In this document: in pieces, positions 7,300-20,681 of the stretch
Layout of the letters: each line of letters begins with the position of its first letter
Position numbering within the stretch: the stretch's first letter is position 1
DNA from: Cylindrospermopsis raciborskii Cr2010
Lineage (GTDB): Bacteria > Cyanobacteriota > Cyanobacteriia > Cyanobacteriales > Nostocaceae
Assembly (NCBI RefSeq): GCF_003367075.2
Contig: NZ_CP065936.1
Coordinates: 2,754,693-2,786,692, forward strand
Direction of reading: 5' to 3'
DNA: 32,000 nucleotides
Made by a program: the position numbers and the translations under genes
Notes under the pieces: generated by a model
Databases searched by the model: none
Told to the model about the DNA's origin: nothing
What the model saw: only the letters and a program-made list of their open reading frames with translations

Positions 7300-8613
7300 A
7301 TGACCTACATGAATCAATCTGCGAAACCTTACTCACCACTGCGTGTAGCCCTAGTTGGTACAATGGTTGCTACCAGTGCTACCCTGTCTTTATTTGGTCA
7401 AGCATGGACTAAACAGGTTAAAGCCGCTTTACAAGACAGTCCGAAAGCACTGGTAGACCAAGTATGGCAACTTGTCAATCGGGACTATGTTGATGGTAAA
7501 TTCAATCAACAAAATTGGCAAGCAATTAGACAAAGTCTATTAAGCAAAAACTACACATCCAAGCAAGAAGCTTATGTAGCCATCAGATCAGCTCTCCAAA
7601 AACTGGAAGATCCCTACACCAGATTTATGGATCCCAAACAATTTGAAGCCCTGACTAATCAAACCTCTGGTGAGGTGACAGGTATAGGGATTCGCATGGA
7701 AATCAATGAGCAAACCAAACGCTTGACTGTGGTAGAGCCTATACAAAATTCACCAGCAGATAAAGCGGGTATTAAAGCAGGGGATGAAATTATTGCCATA
7801 AATGGTAAATCCACTAGTAAAATGAAGATAGATGAAGCATCTAGCTTGATTCGCGGTCCTGCAGGAACTGCCATCACCCTGAAAATATCCAGACCAGGAA
7901 ACAGTTTTCTTGATATCAAGTTAACAAGAGCAACTATTGAAGTACCAACCGTAAGATATATTTTAAAACGAGATAATGGACGTCGTATTGGCTATATTCG
8001 ATTACAAGAATTTAGTAGTCATGCAGCGGAGCAGATGGATCGGGCAATTCGAGATTTGAATAATCAAAAGGTGGACTTTTATGTATTAGACCTGCGTGGT
8101 AATCCTGGTGGTTTACTGCAAGCTAGTATTGAAATAGCACGCATGTGGTTAGATAAAGGCGGTATTGTCAAGACTGTAGATCGGGTAGGCGGTAGCGAAG
8201 AAACCAAAGCCAATGGCACTGCGTTAACTAATAGACCCCTGGCCATATTGGTAGATGGTAACTCCGCCAGCGCCAGTGAAATTCTGACCGGCGCTCTTAA
8301 GGATAATAACCGAGCAGTAGTGGTAGGTAGTCAAACCTATGGTAAGGCCCTAGTACAATCAGTTCATGAGTTAATTGATGGATCTGGTTTAGCAATCACC
8401 ATTGCCCATTATTATACTCCTAAAGGCACGGATATCAACAAAAAGGGTATTACACCCGATATTCAGCTAGATTTAACTCAAGCCCAAGAACGAGAGTTAG
8501 CAGCTAATCCCAATTTAATTGGAACCTTGAGTGACCCACAGTACGCTCGTGCAATTTCCGCTATCTTGGACAGTAAATTTGCCCAACCACCACAAAAAGT
8601 TGAAAATTTCTAG
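7300..8613 (+). CDS. S41 family carboxyl-terminal processing protease (CtpA/B/C family)
   Basis: 437 aa. N-terminal hydrophobic anchor, PDZ-like segment (GIGIRMEI..), catalytic Ser motif GNSASASE and Lys motif TYGKALVQS. The paralog (CtpA, B or C) cannot be assigned by eye. Confidence 0.88.
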   Translation: MTYMNQSAKPYSPLRVALVGTMVATSATLSLFGQAWTKQVKAALQDSPKALVDQVWQLVNRDYVDGKFNQQNWQAIRQSLLSKNYTSKQEAYVAIRSALQKLEDPYTRFMDPKQFEALTNQTSGEVTGIGIRMEINEQTKRLTVVEPIQNSPADKAGIKAGDEIIAINGKSTSKMKIDEASSLIRGPAGTAITLKISRPGNSFLDIKLTRATIEVPTVRYILKRDNGRRIGYIRLQEFSSHAAEQMDRAIRDLNNQKVDFYVLDLRGNPGGLLQASIEIARMWLDKGGIVKTVDRVGGSEETKANGTALTNRPLAILVDGNSASASEILTGALKDNNRAVVVGSQTYGKALVQSVHELIDGSGLAITIAHYYTPKGTDINKKGITPDIQLDLTQAQERELAANPNLIGTLSDPQYARAISAILDSKFAQPPQKVENF

Positions 8614-10738: not shown

Positions 10739-11329
10739 ATGACTAGTCTTCGTGTTGGCCAACAGGCTCCCGATTTTACAGCCACAGCTGTGGTAGACCA
10801 AGATTTTAAGGCTGTCAAACTTGCTGAATATCGTGGCAAGTATGTGGTTCTGTTTTTCTATCCCTTGGATTTTACCTTTGTTTGCCCCACTGAGATCACA
10901 GCATTTAGCGATCGCTACGAAGAGTTCAAGAAATTGAACACAGAGGTATTAGGTATTTCTGTGGATAGTGAATTTTCTCACTTGGCGTGGATTCAAGCAG
11001 ACCGCAAATCTGGTGGTGTTGGCGATTTGAACTATCCCCTGGTTTCAGATATTAAAAAAGAAATTAGCACTGCTTACAATGTTCTTGACCCCGATGCTGG
11101 GATTGCTTTGCGTGGTCTGTTTATCATTGACAAGGATGGGGTTATTCAACACGCTACCATAAATAACTTGGCTTTTGGTCGTAGCGTGGATGAGACCCTA
11201 CGCATACTGCAAGCAATTCAGCACGTACAATCACATCCTGATGAAGTTTGTCCAGCTGGCTGGCAACCGGGTGAAAAGACCATGATTCCTGATCCTGTGA
11301 AGTCCAAAGTGTACTTTGCAGCAGTATAG
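10739..11329 (+). CDS. Typical 2-Cys peroxiredoxin (AhpC/TSA, BAS1-like)
   Basis: 196 aa. Peroxidatic Cys motif [13 protein letters not shown] and resolving Cys motif EVCPAGW. AGGAG sits 11 nt upstream of the ATG. Confidence 0.93.
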
Positions 11330-11376: not shown

Positions 11377-12120
11377 TTAGGGGATAGCGTTTCTCAATTG
11401 TTTAAGGGTACGACCAATACCAACGAAACTTGCGTCTTGAGACAGACGTTTGAGAGTAGGTGGTTTACTTTCGATAACAATACCGTTGTAAGCAGTAATG
11501 GCAGCACTGAGCTTGTCAATGTTGACGCTAAATGCCGCACCTGCTTGTGCCACTGTATTATTACCTTTCCAATCCTTAGTGCTAACTAACATAGCACCGG
11601 GTGAAGATGCAGTGGAAGGTGAGAATAAACCGTTCAGCGCATTAACCAGTGCGATCGCCAGCTGGGGACTAATACCCGCCGATGTTAAAGCTGCTGTTAT
11701 TCTTGCAGCAGCTTCCGTTACCCCTGGACGTGCAAGCACGAGGGTGACCAAGTCAGTAGTATTAGCGCTTGTGCCAAGCACTTGAACTATGTTAGGAACT
11801 AGCTGGTTTAGGGCTGATTGAACTTCTTGTGTAACCGCTAGAGTTGCACTTTGCCCCTCTCTGGTTACGATTATGCTCTCTGCATTAGGTATGAAGGTGA
11901 CACCGCTTCCACCACTAGAACCTCCTGGAGTTGTTTTCCCGGTTGGTGGTGGTGGTTGTGTTGGTTGTACAGGATCTTGTGGAATTGATGGTGGTGAAGG
12001 CAATACATTTCCACTAGGACCTCCTGGTGTTGTGCTACCTCCCTCACTGGTCAATTGCAAAGATGCTAATAAGAACGGGACTAGACTTAAGGTAAAAATG
12101 AGACTTTTGGGTTTTAACAT
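11377..12120 (-). CDS. Secreted hypothetical protein, signal peptide plus Pro/Gly-rich spacer plus Ala/Leu-rich domain
   Basis: 247 aa. N-terminus MLKPKSLIFTLSLVPFLLASLQL, then PGGPSGNVLPSPPSIPQDPVQPTQPPPPTGK. I recognise no family. It lies 34 nt downstream of the preceding gene on the same strand. Confidence 0.6.
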   Translation of the reverse strand: MLKPKSLIFTLSLVPFLLASLQLTSEGGSTTPGGPSGNVLPSPPSIPQDPVQPTQPPPPTGKTTPGGSSGGSGVTFIPNAESIIVTREGQSATLAVTQEVQSALNQLVPNIVQVLGTSANTTDLVTLVLARPGVTEAAARITAALTSAGISPQLAIALVNALNGLFSPSTASSPGAMLVSTKDWKGNNTVAQAGAAFSVNIDKLSAAITAYNGIVIESKPPTLKRLSQDASFVGIGRTLKQLRNAIP

Positions 12121-12154: not shown

Positions 12155-13141
12155 TTACTTAGGTAAAAAATTGAACCCATAGCTGACGCTCAAAGAAAGT
12201 ATGGTGCCACCAGGGCTATTATTAGTGATATCCGCACCCTGGGCTGTAATTGTTAAAGGTAAGGTAGGTATGGGAACATAGGAAGCACCAAGGTTAAAAC
12301 CCACTCCACTCCAACCGAAACCTACACCCAATTGGGGTTGAACCTGCATACCCACACTGCCAAACACACCTGTGCTAGCAAATTCTTGTCTAAACGGACC
12401 ACCCCCAGCGCCTAAGGAAACGGAGATAGGCATTTTATTGACCTCATCATCTGGCTGTAATAGGGAGTAACTAGTAACCACACCGTAAGCTCCAGAAGGG
12501 GTAACACCATCAGTACCATACTGGGCAAAATAGTTCCAACCTGCGGCCACAGCCACCTGGTTGTTACCCTGGGCATAGACAAGACGGTGAACTTTCAGGT
12601 CAAAGCTGCCATTAGCGCCAAACTTTCTAATACTATTGTTGCTGAAACCCAATTCTAAGGCTGCAAATTTGCTAGATTCCCCTATGCCAGCGCCAAGGTT
12701 AATGCCACCATCATACTGACCATCTCTAAGTTTACCGGGGGTAGTACCTGTTATTCCTATAAACACATCACCCGTGTTAGCACCAAAAGCACTTACACCC
12801 GCAAAAGTAAGTCCAGGGGGATAGGTAGGCTTTTGCACTTCCCGTGGTTTAGTTTTTACCAGAGGTTCAATTAGCAATTCTTGCCGAATTCTTCTTACTT
12901 CTTCCGGACTGATATTCTCAGCTTGTGAAATCTGTGGGGGAATGGACCTGGTTTCGTAGCCATTCTGATTGGTGACACCCTCTCCCGCGAATACAAGATC
13001 TGGAGACAGTACCAAAGTTAAAAGGATACTGGGCAAGGTTAGGGAGAGTGCTGAAAAAACTAAGCCCCGCTGATTGTAACCTGGTGTAAAATAAGGCTGT
13101 GTGTTGTTCAAAATATTACTCCTCACTGGACATTCTACCAT
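12155..13141 (-). CDS. Putative outer-membrane beta-barrel protein (unassigned family)
   Basis: 328 aa. Hydrophobic N-terminal segment (LVFSALSLTLPSILLTLVL). The C-terminal ~230 aa is Gly-rich with alternating amphipathic strands (AALELGFS, FDLKVHRLVY, VAVAAGWNYFA, YGVVTSYSLL, LGVGFGWSG, ILSLSVSYGFNF). The start codon is uncertain. Confidence 0.55.
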   Translation of the reverse strand: MVECPVRSNILNNTQPYFTPGYNQRGLVFSALSLTLPSILLTLVLSPDLVFAGEGVTNQNGYETRSIPPQISQAENISPEEVRRIRQELLIEPLVKTKPREVQKPTYPPGLTFAGVSAFGANTGDVFIGITGTTPGKLRDGQYDGGINLGAGIGESSKFAALELGFSNNSIRKFGANGSFDLKVHRLVYAQGNNQVAVAAGWNYFAQYGTDGVTPSGAYGVVTSYSLLQPDDEVNKMPISVSLGAGGGPFRQEFASTGVFGSVGMQVQPQLGVGFGWSGVGFNLGASYVPIPTLPLTITAQGADITNNSPGGTILSLSVSYGFNFLPK

Positions 13142-13422: not shown

Positions 13423-14949
13423 TTATGGTTTAGGTGTTGTTCGGGAATTGTCTGTTGCTGGAGAAGGTTTTTTGGTATAACGACGTTCAAAAATTTCTGC
13501 GGATTTCTGATAATCCACCAGGGCGGCTGAAAAATTCCCAGTCAGAGTATATGCTGTAGCACGATTGATGTAGGCGTTAAAATCATCTGGATCAATTATA
13601 ATTGCTAAGGTTGACACCTTGATAGAAGCAGCGTAGTCCTTTAAATAGTTAAACACATCACTCTGAATTGTATAACCATAACTGTTATTAGGGTCTAGAC
13701 GAATAGCTTGCTTGGAAGATTCCAGTGCTGCTTGATACTTACCCAGCTTAATATAAGCCATACCTTGATGGGCATAAGCTATAGAATAACTGGGATTGAG
13801 GCGAATTGCCCGATTGAAATCCTCAAGAGCGGCCTGATCATTTTGTAACCAAATATAAGTCCAACCACGATTTAGATAACCATCCAAATAATTTGGATCC
13901 AAGGCAATTACCTGGTTAAAGTCGGAGAGGGCTTCTTCGTATCTTCTAAGCCAACTGAGGGCATACCCACGCTTGAAATAAGCTTCTGCATATTTGGGGT
14001 CAATTTTGATTGCCTGATCAAAATCATCTAGAGACTCTTTATAATTAAGCTGGTCTAACTTAGTAATACCTCTAGCATAAAAATCTCGTGCAGATTGGGG
14101 AGAATTTAAGCGTTCCTGTGGTACTTCCCCAGTAGCAGTAGTATTCCTTTGAATTGGCAGCTCTTTGACCAAGGGGTTATTGAAGTTCAAAAAAGTATTA
14201 ATGGGAATGCCAGCATTAAATCCCGTTTTCTGTGATACTATTTCTCCCGTTTCTGTTTTACTCTTAGCTGATGTGTCAGCTAACCCGTGAATTCCCACCA
14301 CCCTACCCTTAATATCAAAAACTGGGCCCCCGCTATTACCGGTAAGAGTTTTAGCATCGTAAATTAAACTATAACCGTTGATAGAAGTTCTACCGCGAGA
14401 AAGAACGATCCCTTTGGTAAAAGTAAAGTCCCTAGCTGAGCCAATTTTATTAAATACAGCTGGAAATCCGCCCACAAACACATCGGATGCTTCCGTCATT
14501 TGGTCAGAATCACCTACATTGGCTGTGGGATATTCCTGTGTAGCTACAAAGCTAACTAGGGCCAAATCAGGATCATTTTTAGTTGACTGTAGGACTACAA
14601 TGTCTTTTGATTTAATAGGGTATTCTTTGCCATCATTTGTTCTTACAGAATAGGTAATGTCTTTAGCGCAGAGGATTTTTCCAGGTCTGTCTATAATATC
14701 ACAGACCACGTGATTGGCGGTTAGTACAGAATAACGATTACCTTGTTTGGCAATAATTACTCCTGAACCCCCAGGGGTAACGTCACCCTCCGTATTAATT
14801 TGTACAGATGTCTTCTTAGCAATTTGTGCTATATCTTGGATACTGATAGTATCAGCAGCTATTGAAGTAGTAGATAAAACAGCTGTTGCAGCAGTGATAA
14901 GAGTTGTTACTAGTAGGGAGTTATTTGTTATTCCAAGTTTAAAATTCAT
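13423..14949 (-). CDS. Exported trypsin-fold (S1, DegP-core-like) serine protease fused to six C-terminal TPR repeats
   Basis: 508 aa. Signal-like N-terminus. Catalytic triad contexts TANHVV (His), DLALVSF (Asp) and TGNSGGPVF (Ser). Six 34-aa TPR units (..AEAYFKRGYALSWLRRYEEALSDFNQVIALDPNY..). No PDZ domain. Confidence 0.85.
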   Translation of the reverse strand: MNFKLGITNNSLLVTTLITAATAVLSTTSIAADTISIQDIAQIAKKTSVQINTEGDVTPGGSGVIIAKQGNRYSVLTANHVVCDIIDRPGKILCAKDITYSVRTNDGKEYPIKSKDIVVLQSTKNDPDLALVSFVATQEYPTANVGDSDQMTEASDVFVGGFPAVFNKIGSARDFTFTKGIVLSRGRTSINGYSLIYDAKTLTGNSGGPVFDIKGRVVGIHGLADTSAKSKTETGEIVSQKTGFNAGIPINTFLNFNNPLVKELPIQRNTTATGEVPQERLNSPQSARDFYARGITKLDQLNYKESLDDFDQAIKIDPKYAEAYFKRGYALSWLRRYEEALSDFNQVIALDPNYLDGYLNRGWTYIWLQNDQAALEDFNRAIRLNPSYSIAYAHQGMAYIKLGKYQAALESSKQAIRLDPNNSYGYTIQSDVFNYLKDYAASIKVSTLAIIIDPDDFNAYINRATAYTLTGNFSAALVDYQKSAEIFERRYTKKPSPATDNSRTTPKP

Positions 14950-15761
14950 TGTTTCTGCTCTTGAATGAAATCAACCACAGTAGCAATGGGGATGGCCCAA
15001 CTTAAGGACTCAATTCTACGGTAATCTGCCCTGTTGGGTTTAGTCCCATCAGTAAAAATAAAGGCATTAATTCCTTGAAAGGGATACTTTAATAACCCGC
15101 TGATACCAACAAGTTCCCCCCGTTGGTTTAAAACGGGTCCTCCACTCATACCTTGGGTAAAATCATTGGTGAAACCCACCTTATAGCCACCAACTAGGGT
15201 TTTACGGAGATACATTTTGATCTTACCCGGTTGTAGCTTGAAAGCACCCAGTCCCCAATCCCGGGTTGTTTCTACTTTGGTGATATTGTCACCATTAAAA
15301 ACAAAATGCCACGCTGGAAACCCAGATACATATACCACTTCCCCCTCAGATATATTTGGCGATCGGGAAAATTGCACAAATTGATAGTTTTCCCCACTGG
15401 TAAATTCCACCAGTGCTAGATCTAAAGAATGGGGATTGACTGTTGGTACTTGCTGTGCTTTGTAAATCTTACCATCAGGTGTTAAAACTTCATAACCACT
15501 CTCAGGACTATCCACTACCACGTGATCATTGGTCAAAACCGTGTAGGTTTGTCCTTCACGGTTGATAATCACTCCTGACCCAGATCCAGATTTAGTAAAA
15601 ATTCTTACTGTTACTTTACTGGCAGTCCTGGCAGCGGCAAATTCAAATCCGGGATGGGGTGTGGAAGCTAGCAAGTTGGGTACAGTATGAGGATACACAA
15701 TGGGGGAAAAAATTGTTGTCAGTAATGCCACAGACAATCTAAAGGATATGGGGTAAAACAC
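14946..15761 (-). CDS. Exported trypsin-fold (S1) serine protease
   Basis: 271 aa. Triad contexts TNDHVV, DLALVEF and TQGMSGGPVL. Hydrophobic N-terminus. Its stop overlaps the start of the downstream protease gene by 4 nt (ATGA at 14946-14949). Confidence 0.8.
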   Translation of the reverse strand: MFYPISFRLSVALLTTIFSPIVYPHTVPNLLASTPHPGFEFAAARTASKVTVRIFTKSGSGSGVIINREGQTYTVLTNDHVVVDSPESGYEVLTPDGKIYKAQQVPTVNPHSLDLALVEFTSGENYQFVQFSRSPNISEGEVVYVSGFPAWHFVFNGDNITKVETTRDWGLGAFKLQPGKIKMYLRKTLVGGYKVGFTNDFTQGMSGGPVLNQRGELVGISGLLKYPFQGINAFIFTDGTKPNRADYRRIESLSWAIPIATVVDFIQEQKQ

Positions 15762-15815: not shown

Positions 15816-16433
15816 TTACAGTTTGAACCTCCGATCAGAGTTTGCTGGTGGTCTTATTTGGTCGGAATCCTGGGGTTTTAGGTCATTCTGGTCGAGGACC
15901 TCACTTAATTCAAGTTGCAGACGACTGCTTGTTTCTCGGACAACACCTGCGCTGGAACCTTGTTTACTAATTCCCGTCAGTTGGGCCAGAATCTCATTGG
16001 CTTTCTGAGCATTTTCCGGTTTAAGAGTAAACAATAAATTCTTGTCACTACAACCTGTTCCACTAGTTGTAGAGGCTATACAAATAACCGTCTCTTTGTT
16101 AACACGACCTTTAATTAGAGCTACGTTTTTTAGGCGTCCACCATTTTGTTTCACGGCCTGATTAAATCTAGATGTTACCATTCGGCAACGATTTTGAGGA
16201 GTATAGTTATCTCCAAAATATTTAGAACCCGCGTCTGTCCAAGTAATTACGGTAATTGGACTACCACCAGGACGCTGGCCAACGGTAGCCCAATTGCCAT
16301 TGCCTTGGGAAACACATGTAAACTTGGTGCCATTGTAGGCTTCAGTAGGGGGCTTAGCTTGTACTCCAGTCTGAATCAAAGTTCCTGCTAGGGTTAAACT
16401 AGCAACTAGAACTGTCGTGGATAGTTTCATCAT
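15816..16433 (-). CDS. COP23 (circadian oscillating protein) family paralog 5, exported
   Basis: 205 aa. Signal peptide, then the core YNGTKFTCVSQGNGNWATVGQRPGG..ITWT..YFG..YTPQNRC..VTSRFNQAV..VICIA..GC..LLFTLKPENA with 4 conserved Cys. The family assignment is from memory of COP23 sequences. Confidence 0.75.
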   Translation of the reverse strand: MMKLSTTVLVASLTLAGTLIQTGVQAKPPTEAYNGTKFTCVSQGNGNWATVGQRPGGSPITVITWTDAGSKYFGDNYTPQNRCRMVTSRFNQAVKQNGGRLKNVALIKGRVNKETVICIASTTSGTGCSDKNLLFTLKPENAQKANEILAQLTGISKQGSSAGVVRETSSRLQLELSEVLDQNDLKPQDSDQIRPPANSDRRFKL

Positions 16434-16463
16434 GCATCATTCCCTTTTCCCATTATAATTACT

Positions 16464-17159
16464 TTACAAACCAGGTTGATTACGTCGGTTATTTTGAACT
16501 TTTGGCCTTTTAACAGGTGAAGAGGATGAGCGTCGAGCTGCTAGCACATCACTCAGTTTGACTGTAACCCGTTGGCGACTACTTCTTGTTTCGGTAATCA
16601 CACCTCCTTCCGATCCCTTCTTGCTAATCTCCAGGAGTTGAGATAAAACCTTATCAGGGTTTTTGGCATTTTCCGGTTTCAGGGTAAATAGGGTATTTTT
16701 ATCTTGACAACCATTATCTCGGTCGGAAATTACACAAATAACAACCTGACCATTAACATTGCCACTGGTTAATAAAACATCTTGAAGCCTACCACCACTC
16801 TCTTGTACTGCTGTGTTGAACTTGCGGGTGACAATTTGACACCGGTTTTCGGGGGCAAATTGGCTACCAAAATATTTGGAAGCTGATTGAGTCCAAATAA
16901 TCACAGGTATTGGTTGGCCACCAGGGCGCTGACCAACGGTAGCCCACTTGCCATTACCCTGGGATACACAGGCAAATTTCGTCCCATTATAGCTTTCATC
17001 ACCAGTCGGTTCTGAGTCTGATGGGTTGTCGGATGCAGGAATAGTGGGGGGGTTAGGGGGGTTATCTCCACTTTCCACTGGCACAGCTCTCACCATGCTA
17101 GGATGCCAACCGGCTGATACAGCTATAAAAGTAGCTAAAACTGTTGCTGAAAATTTCAT
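16464..17159 (-). CDS. COP23 family paralog 4, exported, with a Pro/Asp/Ser-rich N-terminal spacer
   Basis: 231 aa. Same core as paralog 5 (YNGTKFACVSQGNGKWATVGQRPGGQPIPVIIWT..NRCQIVTRKFNTAV..VVICVIS..GC..LFTLKPENA). Basic tail ..VKRPKVQNNRRNQPGL. Confidence 0.75.
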   Translation of the reverse strand: MKFSATVLATFIAVSAGWHPSMVRAVPVESGDNPPNPPTIPASDNPSDSEPTGDESYNGTKFACVSQGNGKWATVGQRPGGQPIPVIIWTQSASKYFGSQFAPENRCQIVTRKFNTAVQESGGRLQDVLLTSGNVNGQVVICVISDRDNGCQDKNTLFTLKPENAKNPDKVLSQLLEISKKGSEGGVITETRSSRQRVTVKLSDVLAARRSSSSPVKRPKVQNNRRNQPGL

Positions 17160-17210
17160 AATATCCTGTTATTTTTTACCAAAGAAGTGTGAAAAGTTCT
17201 GAGTTTTCTA

Positions 17211-17870
17211 TCACAGACCACCTGTATTGGGTCTGGGAGTTTTGCGGGTTCTGGGTGTTTGTTGAGGCAAGCGCTTGGCTGCTTTGGAGATAACTTCACC
17301 TAGGTTTACTGTGGCACGAGAACGACCTCTTGTTTCAGTAATAACCCCTGCACTGGAACCTCTAATACTAATTTGAGTCAGGGTTTCTAAAACCCTATTA
17401 GGGTCTTTGGCATTTTCGGGTTTCAGGGCAAACAGGGTATTGTTACCATCACAACCTCCTGTGTCCTTTAAAGAAAGTGCGCAAATAACAGTTTTGTCAC
17501 CGACTTCTCCCCAGGTTAAAACTACGTCGTAAAGATTGCCAGCGCTATCTTCTACGGCTTGGTTGAGATTGGCTGTGACGATTTCACAACGGCTCTTGGG
17601 ATTATAGTTTTCGCCAAAGGACTGTGCTCCTTTTTTTGTCCACACAATTATGGGAATTGGTCTACCACCAGGGCGCTGTCCAACTGTGGCCCAGTTACCA
17701 CCTTGAGCTACGCAAGCAAATCTCGTCCCATTGTATTGACTGGGATCGCTCGGATCAAAGAATGCGTCATCAGATGATTGGGCTTTTAATTGACCATGTC
17801 CTAAACCCAAAATGCTTGATAGGGTTAGGGTGGCTACTAAACACGTGGTTGAGAATTTGCTACTCATCAT
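17211..17870 (-). CDS. COP23 family paralog 3, exported
   Basis: 219 aa. Roughly 90% identical by eye to paralogs 1 and 2. AAGGAGG lies upstream of the ATG. Tail ..KRLPQQTPRTRKTPRPNTGGL. Confidence 0.78.
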   Translation of the reverse strand: MMSSKFSTTCLVATLTLSSILGLGHGQLKAQSSDDAFFDPSDPSQYNGTRFACVAQGGNWATVGQRPGGRPIPIIVWTKKGAQSFGENYNPKSRCEIVTANLNQAVEDSAGNLYDVVLTWGEVGDKTVICALSLKDTGGCDGNNTLFALKPENAKDPNRVLETLTQISIRGSSAGVITETRGRSRATVNLGEVISKAAKRLPQQTPRTRKTPRPNTGGL

Positions 17871-17961
17871 ATTTCCATACCTCCTTATTTTTTGCTGATG
17901 GCGCGTGGAAAGTTTTGGTTATTCCCCACGCGTTCGACACTTTTGCAATATTTGCCAGTCC

Positions 17962-18621
17962 TTAAACAGAACCTTTAGTTGATCTGGGAGTTTTGCGGGT
18001 TCTGGGTGTTTGTTGAGGCAATCGCTTGGCTGCTTGCGATACAACCCTACCTAAGTTTACACTTAAACGACCTCTTGGTTTAGTTTCACTAACAACCCCT
18101 GCACTAGAGCCTTTAATACTAATTTGAGTCAGGGTTTCTAAAACCTTATTAGGGTCTTTGGCATTTTCAGGTTTCAGAGCAAACAGAGTATTGCTACCAT
18201 CACAACCTCCTTCGTCTTTTAAAGAAAGTGCGCAAATCACAGTTTTGCCATCATCAAGTTTACCCCAGGTTAGGACTACGTCGTAAAGATTGCCAGCGCT
18301 ATCTTCTACCGCTTGGTTGAGATTGGCTGTAACGATTTCACAACGGCTCTTAGGATTATAATTTTCGCCAAAGGACTGTGCTCCTTGTTTTGTCCACACA
18401 ATTATGGGAATTGGTCTACCACCAGGGCGCTGTCCAACTGTGGCCCAGTTACTACCTTGGGCTACACAGGTAAATTTAGTTCCGTTGTATTGACTGCGAT
18501 CGCTCGGATCAAAGAATGAGTCATCTGATGATTGGGCTTTTAATTGACCATGTCCTAAACCCAAAATGCCTGATAGGGCTAGGGTACCTACTAAAAACGC
18601 GGCTGAGAATTTGCTGTTCAT
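17962..18621 (-). CDS. COP23 family paralog 2, exported
   Basis: 219 aa. Near-identical core to paralogs 1 and 3. Tail ..KRLPQQTPRTRKTPRSTKGSV. Confidence 0.78.
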   Translation of the reverse strand: MNSKFSAAFLVGTLALSGILGLGHGQLKAQSSDDSFFDPSDRSQYNGTKFTCVAQGSNWATVGQRPGGRPIPIIVWTKQGAQSFGENYNPKSRCEIVTANLNQAVEDSAGNLYDVVLTWGKLDDGKTVICALSLKDEGGCDGSNTLFALKPENAKDPNKVLETLTQISIKGSSAGVVSETKPRGRLSVNLGRVVSQAAKRLPQQTPRTRKTPRSTKGSV

Positions 18622-18676
18622 AATTTCCCCTTGATCTAGTGTTGGTTTTAATGGTGAGATCTTGCTGGAGCAAAAT

Positions 18677-19894
18677 CTACAGGTTACCTGGTTTGGTGGG
18701 ACGCGGGCCAGTTCTTAAAGCTCTGAGTGTGCCGGTAGTAGGATTGTACTCATAAGCCTTAGCGGTTAAGTCTGGGTGGGGACTGACACAATATTGTTTA
18801 TCACCTATAAAGATGCCAATTACTGGAGTAGAGCTGCAGGAAACAGCTGTTAATTGCCATTTTCTTAACAGGGCTAAATTCGGGTCGTTGGATGATACTG
18901 GTTTCCTGTTCCCTGTAATTTGGATTCCATCTATTTCTACTTCACCTAAAATCCCTGAGTCATCGATAGTATTGCCTAATGCGGAAATGGCAACACCAGT
19001 TGTGGCGGCGTTATAAATGTTGTAACGACCATTGTTGACGATGACATTGCCACCTGGATTACTACGAGTACCTAGATCGGGGGAAGAATTAAGAGTGATG
19101 ACTATGCCATCCCGTTCGTTATCCTTAACCACATTGCTGCGTAACAAGGGTTGAGCTGAATCGGTGATAACTATTCCGTCTCTATTATTGGTGATCTGAT
19201 TTTTGGTCAAGACTGGTTTGGAATCGTCATTAATGCTTAATCCAAAGCCACTCTTCTCAAATACATTATTGCTGATTTTCCCCTTGCTGGATTTGGTTAT
19301 GGAAATACCATTGCCATTGTTTGCTGTAAATTGGTTGTTCTCAATGGTAGGATCCCCACCAGCTGTGACAAATATCCCCTCTCGCAAACTCTGAGCAAAT
19401 GTGCTATTTTTAATAACGGGGTTAGTGGACTCTACCCATACACCTGTTCCTCGGTCATTTCTGTTGGTCACGGTTACACCATTAATTGTGCTGTCTTGTT
19501 CCGCCAGAATAGTTACATTTTGTCTGGCAAAACTACGACTGTTGTGGTCACCACCACCGGAAATAACTACGGTCTTTCCTTTAGTCGATTCATCACCACG
19601 CAAGGTGATTCCTTGTTTAAGTTTGATGGGGAAGGACTCATTAGTGTAACTACCGGGAGCTAACTGAATTATGGTTCCCGGTTGGGCTTGCTCTAAGGCA
19701 AAGGTGATGGTTTTATAGGGATTGGTGACGGAGTTGCCAGTGCTGACAATGTTGACACCACTAATGGGATCCACATAGATAACTGGCGCCACTGAAGGCA
19801 ATTGAGCGCCCACGGGAAGTGTAACTGACAAAGATCCGCAGATGGACGCCATAACTACGGAAGATTTTAGATGTGATTTTGATATAATGTTCAT
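18677..19894 (-). CDS. Exported DUF1565-type right-handed parallel beta-helix repeat protein
   Basis: 405 aa. Signal-like N-terminus. DUF1565-like start (NPYKTITFALEQAQPGTIIQLAPGSY). Repeated PbH1-type turns (IENNQFTANNGNGISIT, ISNNVFEKSGFGLSIN, LTKNQITNNRDGIVIT, LRSNVVKDNERDGIVIT). Small 2-Cys C-terminal domain and tail RTGPRPTKPGNL. Confidence 0.8.
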   Translation of the reverse strand: MNIISKSHLKSSVVMASICGSLSVTLPVGAQLPSVAPVIYVDPISGVNIVSTGNSVTNPYKTITFALEQAQPGTIIQLAPGSYTNESFPIKLKQGITLRGDESTKGKTVVISGGGDHNSRSFARQNVTILAEQDSTINGVTVTNRNDRGTGVWVESTNPVIKNSTFAQSLREGIFVTAGGDPTIENNQFTANNGNGISITKSSKGKISNNVFEKSGFGLSINDDSKPVLTKNQITNNRDGIVITDSAQPLLRSNVVKDNERDGIVITLNSSPDLGTRSNPGGNVIVNNGRYNIYNAATTGVAISALGNTIDDSGILGEVEIDGIQITGNRKPVSSNDPNLALLRKWQLTAVSCSSTPVIGIFIGDKQYCVSPHPDLTAKAYEYNPTTGTLRALRTGPRPTKPGNL

Positions 19895-19930
19895 AATGTT
19901 CCTAAATGACTCCCTAATTTTGTTGTGTAC

Positions 19931-19954
19931 ATCCTAGAGAAAATTGACTAGGGT
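19931..19954 (-). promoter_or_regulatory. Inverted repeat ATCCTAG-N10-CTAGGgT in the leader of the beta-helix gene
   Basis: 7-bp arms with a 10-bp spacer, about 40 nt upstream of ATG 19894. It is homologous in sequence and position to 20708-20731. Confidence 0.45.
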
Positions 19955-20021
19955 GGAATTGTGAAAGTTCCCGATGCTGATAACTTCCAATACAGATTGA
20001 CTTCTCCTGGCTGTTACCAAC

Positions 20022-20681
20022 TCACAGAGTACCTTTAGTGGGTCTATTTACGGGAGTTGTGCGAGTTTTGGGTGTTTCTTGGGGCAATCGCTTGGCTGCT
20101 TGTGAGACAACTTTACCCAGGTTTACACTTAAACGACTTGTTGTTTCACGAACAGTCCCTGCACTAGAACCTTTAATGCTAATTTGAGTCAGGGTTTCTA
20201 AAACCTTATTAGGGTCTTTGGCATTTTCAGGTTTCAGAGCGAACAGGGTATTGTTACCATCACAACCTCCTTCATCCTTTAAAGAAAGTGCGCAAATAAC
20301 AGTCTTGCCATCGTCAAGTTTACCCCAGGTTAGGACTACGTCGTAAAGCTTGCCAGCACTGTCTTCTACCGCTTGGTTGAGGTTGGCTGTGACGATTTCA
20401 CAACGGCTCTTGGGATTATAATTTTCGCCAAAGGACTGTGCTCCTTTTTTTGTCCACATAATTATGGGAATTGGTCTACCACCAGGGCGCTGTCCAACGG
20501 TGGACCAGTCGCTACCTTGGGCTACACAGGTAAATTTAGTTCCGTTGTATTGACTGGGATCGCTCGGATCAAAAAATGCGTCATCTGATGATTGGGCTTT
20601 TAATTGACCATGTCCTAAACCCAAAATGCCTGATAGGGCTAGGGTTGCTACTAAAACTGTGGACGGGAATTTGCCGTTCAT
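20022..20681 (-). CDS. COP23 family paralog 1, exported
   Basis: 219 aa. AGGAG lies 8 nt upstream of the ATG. Core as in paralogs 2 and 3. Tail ..KRLPQETPKTRTTPVNRPTKGTL. Confidence 0.78.
   Translation of the reverse strand: MNGKFPSTVLVATLALSGILGLGHGQLKAQSSDDAFFDPSDPSQYNGTKFTCVAQGSDWSTVGQRPGGRPIPIIMWTKKGAQSFGENYNPKSRCEIVTANLNQAVEDSAGKLYDVVLTWGKLDDGKTVICALSLKDEGGCDGNNTLFALKPENAKDPNKVLETLTQISIKGSSAGTVRETTSRLSVNLGKVVSQAAKRLPQETPKTRTTPVNRPTKGTL

What the first reader, a model, noticed from the sequence alone, without database searches (positions are those of the whole stretch)
15816..20681. Shared basic Pro/Gly/Thr-rich C-terminal tails on the COP23 paralogs and on the unrelated beta-helix protein
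Seen in sequence, the C-termini are:
- Paralog 1: ..AAKRLPQETPKTRTTPVNRPTKGTL
- Paralog 2: ..AAKRLPQQTPRTRKTPRSTKGSV
- Paralog 3: ..AAKRLPQQTPRTRKTPRPNTGGL
- Paralog 4: ..SSSPVKRPKVQNNRRNQPGL
- Beta-helix protein: ..LRALRTGPRPTKPGNL
- Paralog 5 (looser): ..IRPPANSDRRFKL

Four of the six end in G-x-L or PGL after an R/K/P/T-rich stretch. The TPR-protease also ends in a similar composition (..KKPSPATDNSRTTPKP). The beta-helix protein has no homology to COP23 otherwise, so a common tail suggests a shared function rather than shared ancestry.

Inference: the tail could be a sorting or anchoring tag, for example binding an anionic sheath, polysaccharide or outer-membrane component. Alternatively it could be a propeptide removed at Arg/Lys by the adjacent trypsin-fold proteases. 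There is no hydrophobic segment, so it is not a PEP-CTERM or GlyGly-CTERM type signal.
Basis: partly seen in the sequence, partly recalled or inferred. Interest (0 to 1): 0.68.

Follow-up and report, generated by a model that had tools for sequence, protein, structure and literature searches.

The report
Shared C-terminal tag on secreted cyanobacterial proteins
Unrelated secreted proteins in a conserved cyanobacterial gene cluster (COP23, a beta-helix protein and, in other species, the neighbouring proteases) all carry a floppy tail ending in the same two or three residues. These end residues change together from lineage to lineage, which points to an undescribed C-terminal recognition tag.

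Summary
**Observation: confirmed.** The six C-termini read exactly as reported. The similarity among paralogues 1-3 is simply ancestry (84-88% identical proteins; tail DNA 79-85% identical).

**What is conserved.** The real signal is narrower than "basic Pro/Gly/Thr-rich". It is a flexible linker ending in [small, usually Gly]-hydrophobic-COOH.
- Nostocales COP23 homologues: 105/120 end in GL.
- Beta-helix orthologues: 41/46 end in GL. SLH-bearing DUF1565 paralogues: 0/74.
- Family-wide COP23 representatives: 115/150 end in I/F/L/W/Y/M/V, against 21% at neighbouring tail positions. Their linkers are mostly not basic.

**Context.** COP23 sits in a cassette conserved across cyanobacterial orders. 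The order is a protein carrying a new ~57-aa two-Cys module, then COP23, then an S1 protease, then an S1+TPR protease.

**Covariation.** The terminal residue matches between unrelated cassette proteins within a lineage (L, F, I, W or W-x-L) in 9-10 of 11 lineages. A strict tail definition fits 88/181 cassette ORFs but only 4/380 neighbouring ORFs.

**Best reading (inferred).** The tail is a tethered C-terminal ligand read by a co-evolving receptor. The most likely receptor is the TPR domain of the HtrA-like protease, which sits where HtrA carries a PDZ domain.

**Rivals.** An envelope sorting tag, or a ligand for a housekeeping PDZ protease.

**Known signals.** No known sorting signal fits.

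The parts
20025..20108 (-). C-terminal tail of COP23 paralogue 1 (residues 192-219, ..AAKRLPQETPKTRTTPVNRPTKGTL), ending G-T-L
   Evidence: ORF. Lies beyond the Pfam COP23 match 49-191. Orthologues P0003/P0004/P0008 keep ..KGTL.
18680..18715 (-). C-terminal tail of the DUF1565 beta-helix protein (residues 394-405, RTGPRPTKPGNL)
   Evidence: Of 46 orthologues, 45 end in L and 41 in GL, after variable linkers (29 distinct 12-aa linkers). AF2 pLDDT is below 50 for the tail.
18716..18886 (-). 'Cdom': an undescribed ~57-aa two-Cys module directly upstream of the beta-helix protein's tail
   Evidence: No Pfam hit. HMM built here finds it on DUF1565, S1-TPR proteases, PPC-like proteins, small proteins and Ser/Thr kinases; except on Nostocales S1-TPR proteases (terminal Cdom) and the L015/L016 proteases (extra domain), it is followed by a linker plus small-hydrophobic end. 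AF2 gives a helix plus 4 strands at pLDDT 77-88. No PDB fold match.
17965..18042 (-). C-terminal tail of COP23 paralogue 2 (residues 194-219, ending G-S-V)
   Evidence: Recent duplicate of paralogues 1 and 3 (CDS 88-91% identical).
17214..17291 (-). C-terminal tail of COP23 paralogue 3 (residues 194-219, ending G-G-L)
16467..16541 (-). C-terminal tail of COP23 paralogue 4 (residues 207-231, ..SSSPVKRPKVQNNRRNQPGL)
   Evidence: Orthologues end ..N-Q-[PRT]-G-L (P0011-P0017, P0025). AF2 gives pLDDT below 50 from residue 178 onward, with the tail not docked on its own domain.
15819..15893 (-). C-terminal tail of COP23 paralogue 5 (residues 181-205, ..IRPPANSDRRFKL); net charge +1
   Evidence: Orthologues end ..DRGFKL (P0015, P0016, P0018, P0037).
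14946..15761 (-). 271-aa secreted S1 protease (HtrA-like core, no PDZ, no tail in this genome); candidate partner of the tails
   Evidence: Trypsin_2 at 4e-23. Triad H80/D114/S206 intact. Nearest solved relatives are all HtrA/DegP/DegQ/HhoA. Follows COP23 directly in the large majority of loci with enough flanking sequence (exceptions: many Chamaesiphon loci and Microcoleus L052). Orthologues in Phormidium, Leptolyngbyaceae, Oxynema and L050 carry the lineage's own tail.
13423..14949 (-). 508-aa secreted S1 protease + TPR domain; overlaps the upstream protease gene by 4 bp; candidate receptor for the tails
   Evidence: Trypsin_2 plus 5-6 TPR repeats. Triad H80/D128/S206. Orthologues are 567-661 aa with 1-2 terminal Cdom copies, or carry the lineage tail.
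12155..13141 (-). 328-aa signal-peptide protein, Gly-rich, no family hit; linked to the cassette in Nostocales only
   Evidence: No Pfam or NCBIfam hit. Orthologue next to the cassette in L002-L010.
11377..12120 (-). 247-aa signal-peptide protein of unknown family; linked to the cassette in Nostocales only; followed by a terminator-like hairpin at 11365-11340

Best explanation
Each tail is a disordered tether whose functional part is its last two to four residues: a small residue, usually Gly, followed by a hydrophobic residue with the free carboxylate. In this genome that is G-L or G-x-L.

The tail marks the secreted proteins of one conserved periplasmic cassette. The cassette comprises COP23 paralogues, proteins carrying the Cdom module such as the beta-helix protein, and, in other lineages, the two proteases themselves and a Ser/Thr kinase ectodomain.

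A receptor pocket that co-evolves with the tag reads it. This is why all cassette proteins of a lineage end alike and why the ending switches between lineages (L, F, I, W, W-x-L).

The most likely receptor is the cassette's own protease pair. Both have HtrA-like catalytic cores and lack the PDZ domain that HtrA enzymes use to grasp hydrophobic C-termini. One has a TPR domain in that position, and TPR is a fold known to clamp C-terminal peptides. Capture of the tail would tether the tagged protein to the protease for processing or turnover, or would activate the protease.

Shown here:
- The tag exists, is under protein-level selection, is specific to the cassette, and co-varies by lineage.
- The genes are syntenic across orders and occur as domain fusions.

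Inferred:
- That the tag is a binding ligand.
- That the TPR domain or the protease is its receptor.
- That the outcome is proteolysis.

The basic linker is a local (Nostocales/Chamaesiphon) flavour, not the core signal.
For: Conservation of the extreme end with variable linkers:
- Searches give 105/120, 41/46 and 115/150 with the conserved ending, at p about 1e-48.
- Linker length after Cdom ranges from 4 to 85 aa.
- Synonymous codon variation at the terminal Gly and Leu.

Specificity:
- A strict tail definition fits 88/181 cassette ORFs and 4/380 other ORFs in the same loci (odds ratio 89, p 6e-46).
- SLH-type DUF1565 paralogues: 0/74.

Covariation of the last residue across unrelated cassette proteins:
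- Nostocales L/L; Phormidium A L/L/L/L; L013 L/L/L; Phormidium B F/F/F; Chamaesiphon F/F; L044 I/I; Oxynema W/W; L050 F/F; the L016/L042/L056 group shares W-x-L.
- 8/8 identical at the first count. Independence gives 2e-5 and permutation gives 9e-4.

Synteny and fusions:
- Synteny of COP23, S1 and S1+TPR across orders.
- Fusions: S1+TPR+COP23, DUF1565+COP23, kinase+Cdom.

Proteases:
- Catalytic triads are intact.
- Nearest solved relatives are HtrA/DegP/HhoA. There is no PDZ; TPR is present instead.

Structure predictions:
- Tails are low-confidence and not docked on their own domain in AF2, consistent with a tether that acts in trans.

Literature:
- COP23 of Cyanothece RF-1 is membrane-associated and oscillates through rhythmic synthesis and degradation (bioRxiv 10.64898/2026.04.23.720389).
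- The Anabaena homologue Alr2313 is found in the exoproteome (PMC4390845).

From established knowledge, not tested here: PDZ domains of DegS, DegP and Tsp bind hydrophobic C-termini, and the TPR domains of PEX5, Hop and CHIP clamp C-terminal peptides.
Against: - No binding or cleavage evidence of any kind. I could not model a tail-receptor complex: only monomer AF2 was available, and tailed proteases were not admissible inputs.
- In several lineages the proteases carry the tag themselves. That fits a common sorting tag at least as well as a substrate tag, unless the proteases self-regulate or oligomerise through it.
- Many Chamaesiphon loci and Microcoleus (L052) keep tagged COP23 without an adjacent protease.
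- Some COP23 proteins lack the tag although the proteases are adjacent (L015, L055 proteases untagged).
- I/L mixing occurs within L014 and L054. In L053 the S1 protein ends ..LGHL while COP23 ends ..DSI.
- A signal-peptide DUF3747 protein outside the cassette carries the local tag, hinting at a wider client set.
- The TPR domain matches only generic TPR structures.
- Lineages are not strictly independent, so the p-values are approximate.
Confidence: 0.4

Rival explanations
1. Envelope sorting or anchoring tag. The [small]-hydrophobic-COOH end directs a set of Sec-exported proteins to a common destination, such as the outer-membrane inner face, the cell surface or sheath, peptidoglycan, or export to the medium. 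It would act through machinery encoded elsewhere, or in Nostocales through the linked 328-aa and 247-aa proteins. The cassette proteins share the tag because they work in the same place.
For: - The tag sits on all cassette members in some lineages, proteases included. Suites of unrelated proteins share sorting signals in the same way.
- Lineage-specific variants are typical of sorting signals.
- A DUF3747 protein outside the cassette carries it.
- The Anabaena COP23 homologue is in the exoproteome.
- PG_binding_1+COP23 fusions exist, and amidase or VanY genes are neighbours.
- Two further unknown secreted proteins are linked in Nostocales.
Against: - No dedicated sorting enzyme or transporter is conserved in or next to the cassette across lineages.
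- The signal is only 2-4 residues with no hydrophobic helix or folded domain, unlike every curated bacterial sorting signal. No NCBIfam sorting-signal model hits.
- Membrane-anchored Ser/Thr kinases carry the tag on their ectodomain. These cannot be relocated.
Confidence: 0.25
2. Ligand for a housekeeping PDZ protease. The tails are C-terminal ligands for the PDZ domains of the general periplasmic proteases (HhoA/HhoB/HtrA, or the Ctp C-terminal processing peptidases), not for the cassette's own PDZ-less proteases.
For: - A hydrophobic last residue with a free carboxylate, and W-x-L or x-M-F endings, resemble PDZ ligands such as the OMP Y-x-F that activates DegS (established knowledge).
- An S41+PDZ peptidase is encoded in the window at 7300-8613.
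- Tagged COP23 occurs without adjacent cassette proteases in Chamaesiphon and Microcoleus.
Against: - The S41 gene is not syntenic with the cassette in any other locus.
- This does not explain the near-universal COP23, S1, S1-TPR adjacency or the fusions.
- The strict tag is almost confined to cassette proteins in the loci examined. A general PDZ quality-control signal should be widespread.
Confidence: 0.12
3. First reader's main idea. The basic Pro/Thr/Gly-rich tail binds an anionic sheath, polysaccharide or outer-membrane component electrostatically.
For: - Tails in this window carry net charge +5, +7, +6, +6, +1 and +3.
- Linker charge correlates between COP23 and partner tails per locus (Spearman 0.59, p 0.0014, 26 non-independent loci). 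Charge is therefore not random within a lineage.
Against: - Family-wide the median tail charge is -1, 96/150 are negative, and only 16/150 are +3 or more.
- Phormidium, Leptolyngbyaceae and the L044 lineage have acidic or neutral linkers with the same terminal rule.
- Paralogue 5 of this window is nearly neutral.
- Charge cannot explain the invariant hydrophobic last residue.
Confidence: 0.07
4. Transpeptidation site. A cassette serine protease attacks the bond before the terminal hydrophobic residue, releases that residue, and passes the acyl-enzyme on the preceding Gly to an amine, for example peptidoglycan meso-diaminopimelate or a protein Lys. This would anchor the protein covalently, by the logic of sortase, DD-transpeptidase or Atg8.
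For: - Gly is enriched at -2 (36% against 8%) and -3 (23%).
- The serine proteases are always adjacent.
- Peptidoglycan-related fusions and neighbours occur.
Against: - Gly is not universal before the last residue (..DSI..PSI..NEL..WAL..SMF).
- No precedent for S1 enzymes in this role.
- No evidence of covalent products.
Confidence: 0.05
5. First reader's alternative. The tail is a propeptide removed at Arg/Lys by the adjacent trypsin-fold proteases.
For: - Nostocales tails are rich in Arg and Lys.
- The 271-aa type has a conserved Asp six residues before the catalytic Ser (TNDxxxGMSGGP; consensus, Ser position). This is the same spacing as trypsin Asp189. It is a lead only.
Against: - Most lineages have tails with few or no Arg/Lys.
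- The strongest constraint is on the very last residues, which a discarded propeptide would not need unless they serve for recognition first.
- The closest solved relatives are HtrA-type, not trypsin-specificity, enzymes.
Confidence: 0.05
6. Chance resemblance of low-complexity C-termini.
For: Within the window alone only about four independent tails exist, and they are not alignable beyond composition and the last residues.
Against: (see above).
Confidence: 0.01

Closest known systems
HtrA-family proteases reading hydrophobic C-termini through PDZ domains (DegS activated by OMP Y-x-F-COOH; DegP/DegQ PDZ1; Tsp/Prc and Ctp PDZ)
   Same: - Periplasmic serine proteases with an HtrA-like catalytic core.
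- Partner proteins end in a hydrophobic residue with a free carboxylate.
- The peptide-binding module is C-terminal to the protease domain.
   Different: - Neither cassette protease has a PDZ domain. One has TPR repeats instead and the other has nothing.
- The tag is genome-encoded on folded, dedicated partner proteins at the end of a long disordered tether. It is not exposed by misfolding.
- The tag varies by lineage.
TPR carboxylate-clamp recognition of C-terminal motifs (PEX5-PTS1 'SKL-COOH'; Hop/CHIP/TOM70 with Hsp70/90 'EEVD-COOH')
   Same: - A 2-4 residue motif at the extreme C-terminus of a flexible tail, shared by unrelated proteins.
- A TPR protein is encoded alongside.
- In this genome the last Leu is preceded by basic residues, much as PTS1 is.
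   Different: - The setting is bacterial and periplasmic, and the TPR is fused to a protease.
- Clamp residues and binding were not tested.
- The TPR matches only generic TPR structures.
NlpI (TPR adaptor) with Prc tail-specific protease in E. coli
   Same: A TPR module cooperates with a periplasmic protease that selects substrates by their C-terminus. NlpI is among the sub-threshold NCBIfam hits of the TPR region.
   Different: - In E. coli the TPR and the protease are separate proteins and a PDZ reads the C-terminus.
- There is no family of tagged clients.
C-terminal protein-sorting signals (PEP-CTERM/exosortase, GlyGly-CTERM/rhombosortase, LPXTG/sortase, T9SS CTD)
   Same: A C-terminal tag shared by unrelated secreted proteins, with lineage-specific variants.
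   Different: - No transmembrane helix, no basic anchor after a helix, no folded CTD.
- No cognate sorting enzyme nearby.
- No NCBIfam model hit.
COP23 (circadian oscillating polypeptide, Cyanothece/Synechococcus RF-1; PF14218)
   Same: The five paralogues are bona fide family members. The family is cyanobacterial, exported, and of unknown function.
   Different: In the literature I could search, nothing describes the C-terminal tag, the protease cassette or the domain fusions.

Membership tests
COP23 (PF14218) | Match to the Pfam model above the gathering score (27 bits) | tested here: met
   86-113 bits for all five paralogues
DUF1565 / right-handed beta-helix | Match to PF07602 and PF13229 above the gathering score | tested here: met
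   126.5 and 85.6 bits
PEP-CTERM (exosortase) signal | Pro-Glu-Pro motif, then a hydrophobic transmembrane helix, then a basic cluster at the C-terminus | tested here: not met
   No NCBIfam hit on any tail at E<=0.01. Tails are 9-18% hydrophobic with no hydrophobic run.
GlyGly-CTERM (rhombosortase) signal | Gly-Gly followed by a transmembrane helix and basic residues | tested here: not met
   Gly-Gly is followed by a single Leu and the stop codon. No helix.
LPXTG (sortase) signal | LPXTG motif, hydrophobic segment, basic tail | tested here: not met
   No motif and no hydrophobic segment
T9SS C-terminal domain | Folded ~80-100 aa beta-sandwich CTD | tested here: not met
   No NCBIfam or Pfam hit. 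The tail is predicted unstructured.
Type I secretion C-terminal signal | No N-terminal signal peptide; usually RTX repeats; ABC/MFP genes nearby | tested here: not met
   All cassette proteins begin with a signal-peptide-like hydrophobic N-terminus (inspection). No RTX repeats and no transporter genes in the window.
Outer-membrane beta-barrel beta-signal | Terminal aromatic residue as the end of the last strand of a beta-barrel | tested here: not met
   The COP23 core is a small alpha/beta domain and the tail is unstructured. The terminal residue is aliphatic in many lineages.
PDZ-type C-terminal ligand (HtrA/DegS/Tsp systems) | Hydrophobic last residue with a free carboxylate, accessible on a flexible end | tested here: met
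   115/150 family representatives; 114/120 and 45/46 in Nostocales. Tails are low-confidence in AF2.
PDZ-type C-terminal ligand (HtrA/DegS/Tsp systems) | A PDZ domain in the partner protease | tested here: not met
   No PDZ in the 271-aa or 508-aa protease. The only PDZ protein in the window (S41, 7300-8613) is not syntenic elsewhere.
TPR carboxylate-clamp ligand (PTS1/EEVD type) | Short motif at the extreme C-terminus, shared by unrelated proteins, with a TPR protein as partner | tested here: met
   Motif shared across COP23, DUF1565, Cdom proteins, proteases and kinases. A TPR protease is co-encoded across orders.
TPR carboxylate-clamp ligand (PTS1/EEVD type) | Physical binding of the C-terminal peptide in the TPR groove through clamp residues | not testable with these tools
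   Only monomer AF2 on admissible sequences was available. Tailed proteases could not be submitted.
HtrA/DegP (S1C) proteases | Trypsin-fold catalytic domain with a His-Asp-Ser triad | tested here: met
   Triads present. Best PDB relatives are all HtrA/DegP/DegQ/HhoA. NCBIfam HtrA models hit below their cut-offs.
HtrA/DegP (S1C) proteases | One or two C-terminal PDZ domains | tested here: not met

The most novel reading that the evidence does not exclude
The [Gly/small]-hydrophobic-COOH ending is a new kind of bacterial C-terminal tag. It defines the client set of a cyanobacteria-wide periplasmic module built from PDZ-less, TPR-bearing HtrA-like proteases. The tag and its reader co-evolve like a lock and key. 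In the boldest form, the protease uses it as a transpeptidation site to couple clients covalently to the cell wall or to each other. Either way it would give COP23, a protein known for 30 years only as 'circadian oscillating', a concrete biochemical handle for its rhythmic degradation.
Probability: 0.12. Interest if true: 0.85.

Novelty: new variant of a known kind. Interest (0 to 1): 0.68.

Why it matters
COP23 is one of the most highly expressed and most strongly regulated proteins in diazotrophic cyanobacteria and their endosymbiotic descendants, and it still has no known function.

This work shows three things:
- COP23 belongs to a conserved secreted cassette with two HtrA-like proteases.
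- The cassette's unrelated members share a minimal C-terminal tag that co-varies by lineage.
- The modules occur fused to one another in some species.

This turns "function unknown" into testable questions: which domain reads the tag, and whether the tag drives the reported rhythmic degradation.

It would also add a tag to the short list of bacterial C-terminal recognition signals. This one works without a PDZ domain, a transmembrane helix or a folded C-terminal domain. The matched L, F, I and W variants from different lineages offer a natural specificity-swap experiment.

A by-product is an undescribed 57-residue two-Cys domain (Cdom) that travels with the tag.

Tried and rejected
1. A 50-sequence COP23 alignment (A2) was too diverse for the search for related loci. 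A 12-sequence alignment worked.
2. My last homologue search used a mixed alignment of tailed S1 and S1-TPR proteases, to obtain admissible sequences for AF2. It returned almost only large tandem-S1+TPR paralogues. I therefore could not test whether a native tail docks onto its own protease or TPR domain.
3. AF2 of COP23 paralogue 4 gave a confident core (residues 56-177). Foldseek against PDB found nothing significant (best E 0.28).
4. AF2 of Cdom plus tail gave the same outcome (best E 0.67).
5. Sequence search of the TPR region against PDB gave only generic TPR hits (consensus TPR, OGT, TOM70, Hop), with no pointer to ligand type.
6. I looked for a Cdom remnant downstream of the truncated 508-aa gene and found none.
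7. I checked whether the S41/PDZ peptidase in the window is part of the system. It is not syntenic elsewhere.
8. Literature searches for COP23, Alr2313, DUF1565, and COP23 with proteases found no description of the tail or the cassette.
9. Gene conversion as the source of the beta-helix/COP23 tail similarity is rejected. DNA identity is at the shuffled level.
10. A DNA-level element (terminator or RNA) as the reason for 3'-end conservation is rejected. The terminal codons and the stop codons vary.

Full report
**What is in the window.**
- By best hits the window comes from Cylindrospermopsis/Raphidiopsis (Nostocales).
- Between 20681 and 11377 the minus strand carries these genes in order:
  - COP23 paralogue 1
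  - a DUF1565 beta-helix protein
  - COP23 paralogues 2-5
  - a 271-aa S1 protease
  - a 508-aa S1 protease with a TPR domain
  - two signal-peptide proteins with no family hit
- Intergenic gaps are 30-127 bp, and the two protease genes overlap by 4 bp.
- Terminator-like hairpins lie at 13299-13282 and 11365-11340.
- All of these proteins begin with a signal-peptide-like N-terminus (my inspection; no predictor was available).
- Both proteases keep a His/Asp/Ser triad. Their nearest solved relatives are exclusively HtrA/DegP/DegQ/HhoA/HTRA1-2, and neither has a PDZ domain.

**The observation.**
- The six C-termini are as quoted.
- Paralogues 1-3 are recent duplicates. The proteins are 84-88% identical, the CDS 87-91%, and the tail DNA 79-85% against about 57% for shuffles. 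Their likeness is ancestry.
- The beta-helix protein is not homologous to COP23 (best E 6.4). Its tail DNA is no more similar to the COP23 tails than shuffled sequence.
- Within the window the case therefore rests on about four independent tails that share composition and a hydrophobic last residue. Chance for this is about 5e-4, which is suggestive only.

**Orthologues settle it.**
- Of 120 Nostocales COP23 homologues, 105 end in G-L and 114 in L, with 44 distinct 12-residue linkers in front.
- All 46 full-length orthologues of the beta-helix protein have the same build: beta-helix, a small conserved domain, a variable Ser/Pro/Arg-rich linker (29 variants), then an end that is G-L in 41 and L in 45.
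- None of 74 SLH-bearing DUF1565 paralogues ends this way.
- The terminal Leu is encoded by TTG, TTA, CTG and CTA, the Gly by four codons, and all three stop codons occur. Selection therefore acts on the protein end, not on a DNA element.

**The rule is family-wide, and it is not "basic".**
- I examined 150 COP23 representatives, none more than 50% identical to another, taken from 803 proteins with E<=0.001 in 1.8 billion.
- The last residue is I, F, L, W, Y, M or V in 115 of them. Hydrophobic residues make up 21% of tail positions -2 to -30 (binomial p about 1e-48).
- Gly is 36% at -2 and 23% at -3, against 8% background.
- The preceding 25 residues are enriched in Pro and Ser.
- The median net charge is -1, and only 16 tails are +3 or more.
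- The conserved feature is thus a flexible linker ending in [small]-hydrophobic-COOH.

**A conserved cassette.**
- I collected 41 genome loci and 15 further contigs, called ORFs with a script and searched them with the window's proteins.
- COP23 is followed directly by an S1 protease of the 271-aa type, and usually then by an S1+TPR protease. This holds in Nostocales, two Phormidium groups, Leptolyngbyaceae, Pleurocapsales, Limnoraphis, Oxynema and several uncultured lineages.
- COP23 is usually preceded by a protein carrying a ~57-residue two-Cys module that I call Cdom.
  - In the window it lies at 18716-18886.
  - It has no Pfam hit.
  - AF2 predicts a helix plus four strands at pLDDT 77-88.
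  - It has no PDB fold match.
- Cdom sits on the beta-helix protein here. Elsewhere it is found on PPC-like proteins (three copies), small coiled-coil proteins, the S1-TPR protease and transmembrane Ser/Thr kinases.
- Almost every Cdom protein continues with a linker of 4-85 residues and the small-hydrophobic end.
- Domain fusions tie the parts together:
  - DUF1565+COP23 (P0283, P0355)
  - S1+TPR+COP23 (Oxynema aestuarii AP17, L047)
  - PG_binding_1+COP23
  - kinase+Cdom
- The window's 508-aa protease is a shortened version. Dolichospermum orthologues (567-661 aa) continue from the Lys/Pro/Ser-rich stretch into one or two Cdom copies. The "similar" tail ..TTPKP is therefore a linker stump, not a tag.

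**Specificity and covariation.**
- I applied a strict definition: the last residue is I/L/F/W/M/V/Y, Gly or Ser is at -2 or -3, and at least 80% of positions -18 to -4 are polar, small or charged.
- This fits 88 of 181 cassette-family ORFs and only 4 of 380 other ORFs of 100 aa or more in the same loci (odds ratio 89, p 6e-46).
- One of those four is a signal-peptide DUF3747 protein whose end echoes the local tag.
- Within a lineage, unrelated cassette proteins end alike:
  - Nostocales: GL on COP23 and the beta-helix protein.
  - Phormidium CCY1219 and FRX01: ..GSGL, ..GGVL or ..DSGI, ..RRGL or ..QGGL, and ..DLGL or ..EGGL on all four proteins.
  - Phormidium OSCR and willei, and Oscillatoria HE10JO: ..GGSMF, ..PLVF, ..PGFMF.
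  - Chamaesiphon: ..TGF and ..KGF or ..GGF.
  - L044: ..GGI and ..GPI.
  - Oxynema: ..QGW and ..PGW.
  - L050: ..GGF and ..TGF.
  - The L016/L042/L056 group: ..DWAL or ..DWSL on COP23, and ..DWAL or ..NWKL on the kinase.
- At the first count, 8 of 8 lineages matched. Independence with family-wide frequencies gives 2e-5, and permutation among the eight gives 9e-4.
- With later loci the tally is 9-10 of 11. The exceptions are I against L within L014 and L054, and a short conserved ..LGHL on the S1 protein of L053.
- Linker charge also tracks between COP23 and its partners (Spearman 0.59, p 0.0014 over 26 non-independent loci).
- The lineages are not strictly independent, so these p-values are indicative.

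**Mechanism.**
- A terminal motif that needs its position at the very end, sits on a tether of arbitrary length and composition, is shared by unrelated proteins, and switches in concert between lineages is what one expects of a ligand for a co-evolving pocket that reads the last side chain and the carboxylate.
- AF2 does not dock the tail on its own domain, either for COP23 or for Cdom. This fits recognition in trans.
- Within the cassette, the only canonical peptide-binding module is the TPR domain. It is fused C-terminally to an HtrA-like core, at the place where HtrA enzymes carry the PDZ domain that binds hydrophobic C-termini.
- TPR domains of PEX5, Hop and CHIP are the textbook readers of C-terminal motifs (established knowledge, not tested here).
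- COP23 of Cyanothece RF-1 is reported to oscillate through rhythmic synthesis and degradation, which a dedicated protease plus tag would explain.
- I therefore favour tag capture by the cassette protease or proteases, leading to processing or turnover.
- My confidence is about 0.85 that the tail is a functional C-terminal recognition motif. It is only about 0.4 for this particular receptor and outcome.

**Rivals.**
- A sorting or anchoring tag is the main rival. The proteases themselves carry the tag in several lineages, a non-cassette DUF3747 protein has it, the Anabaena homologue Alr2313 is in the exoproteome, and peptidoglycan-related fusions and neighbours occur.
- Against sorting:
  - No sorting enzyme is conserved nearby.
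  - The signal is far smaller than any curated sorting signal, and none of the NCBIfam models hits.
  - Membrane-anchored kinases carry the tag on their ectodomain.
- Housekeeping PDZ proteases remain possible receptors. The window's S41/PDZ gene, however, is not syntenic elsewhere.
- Electrostatic anchoring and Arg/Lys-directed propeptide removal fail as general explanations, because most lineages have non-basic tails.
- A transpeptidation reading (Gly|hydrophobic as a leaving-group site) is not excluded but is weakly supported.

**Novelty.**
- No Pfam or NCBIfam model and no paper that I could search describes the tag, Cdom or the cassette.
- In kind, it is a C-terminal recognition tag. That is a known principle, here in a new form and setting.

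Noticed in passing
window 18716-18886 (-); also L003 11688-13673, L012 8924-9940, L031 2987-3529, L056 5560-6855: Undescribed ~57-aa two-Cys module ('Cdom'). The motif is DPNLxLLxxWxL..C..(12-14)..YC..P..L...Y.YN..TG.L. It has no Pfam hit and no PDB fold match. It occurs in 1-3 copies on beta-helix, PPC-like, coiled-coil, S1-TPR protease and Ser/Thr kinase proteins, and is nearly always followed by the linker plus tag.
   Followed up: partly
window 13423-14949 (-): The S1+TPR protease is truncated relative to Dolichospermum/Anabaena orthologues (567-661 aa with 1-2 terminal Cdom copies). The Raphidiopsis brookii D9 copy is shorter still (461 aa). No Cdom remnant lies downstream.
   Followed up: yes
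L047 10019-12466 (Oxynema aestuarii AP17); P0283, P0355; P0348/L034 9419-10513; P0267: Natural domain fusions: S1+TPR+COP23; DUF1565 beta-helix+COP23; two PG_binding_1 domains+COP23; COP23+GUN4-like.
   Followed up: partly
L016 13304-15493 (-); L056 5560-6855 (+): Transmembrane Ser/Thr kinases next to the cassette carry an extracytoplasmic C-terminus ending ..DNSDWAL or Cdom+..NWKL. This is the same W-x-L ending as the local COP23 proteins and hints at a link to cytoplasmic signalling.
   Followed up: partly
window 10739-11329 (+); L002-L009 about 600 bp after the S1-TPR gene; Chamaesiphon loci directly after COP23: A peroxiredoxin gene is adjacent to the cassette in Nostocales (2-Cys AhpC type). 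A distantly related Bcp-like one directly follows COP23 in Chamaesiphon. COP23 has four invariant cysteines.
   Followed up: no
window 7300-8613 (+): S41 C-terminal processing peptidase with a PDZ domain lies about 5 kb from the cassette on the other strand. It is not syntenic with the cassette in any other locus.
   Followed up: yes
window 14946-15761 (-), residues ~198-209: The 271-aa protease type has a conserved Asp six residues before the catalytic Ser (TNDxxxGMSGGP). This is the same spacing as the specificity-determining Asp189 of trypsin. The S1-TPR type instead has the HtrA-like DAxxxxGNSGGP.
   Followed up: no
P0402-P0502: Large (800-1000 aa) Nostocales tandem-S1+TPR paralogues mostly end '...AMALLKGL'. 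This is again GL, but directly after the last TPR helix rather than on a linker.
   Followed up: no
L011 13026-15938 (Cronbergia sp. UHCC 0137): Five small ORFs (97-128 aa) just after the cassette, with 'LSxEQQExLxGG'-like leaders and Gly-rich cores ending in F or L. They look like an array of RiPP precursors.
   Followed up: no
window 12155-13141 and 11377-12120 (-): Two signal-peptide proteins without any family hit stay linked to the cassette throughout Nostocales but on the other side of it (upstream of the beta-helix gene in Dolichospermum, downstream of the proteases here). The 328-aa one is Gly-rich and ends ..SYGFNFLPK.
   Followed up: partly
L052 4777-6600 (Microcoleus), L044 11541-12974: Cell-wall enzymes lie next to COP23 loci: Amidase_3+SH3 in Microcoleus, and VanY+PG_binding_1 in L044.
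   Followed up: no
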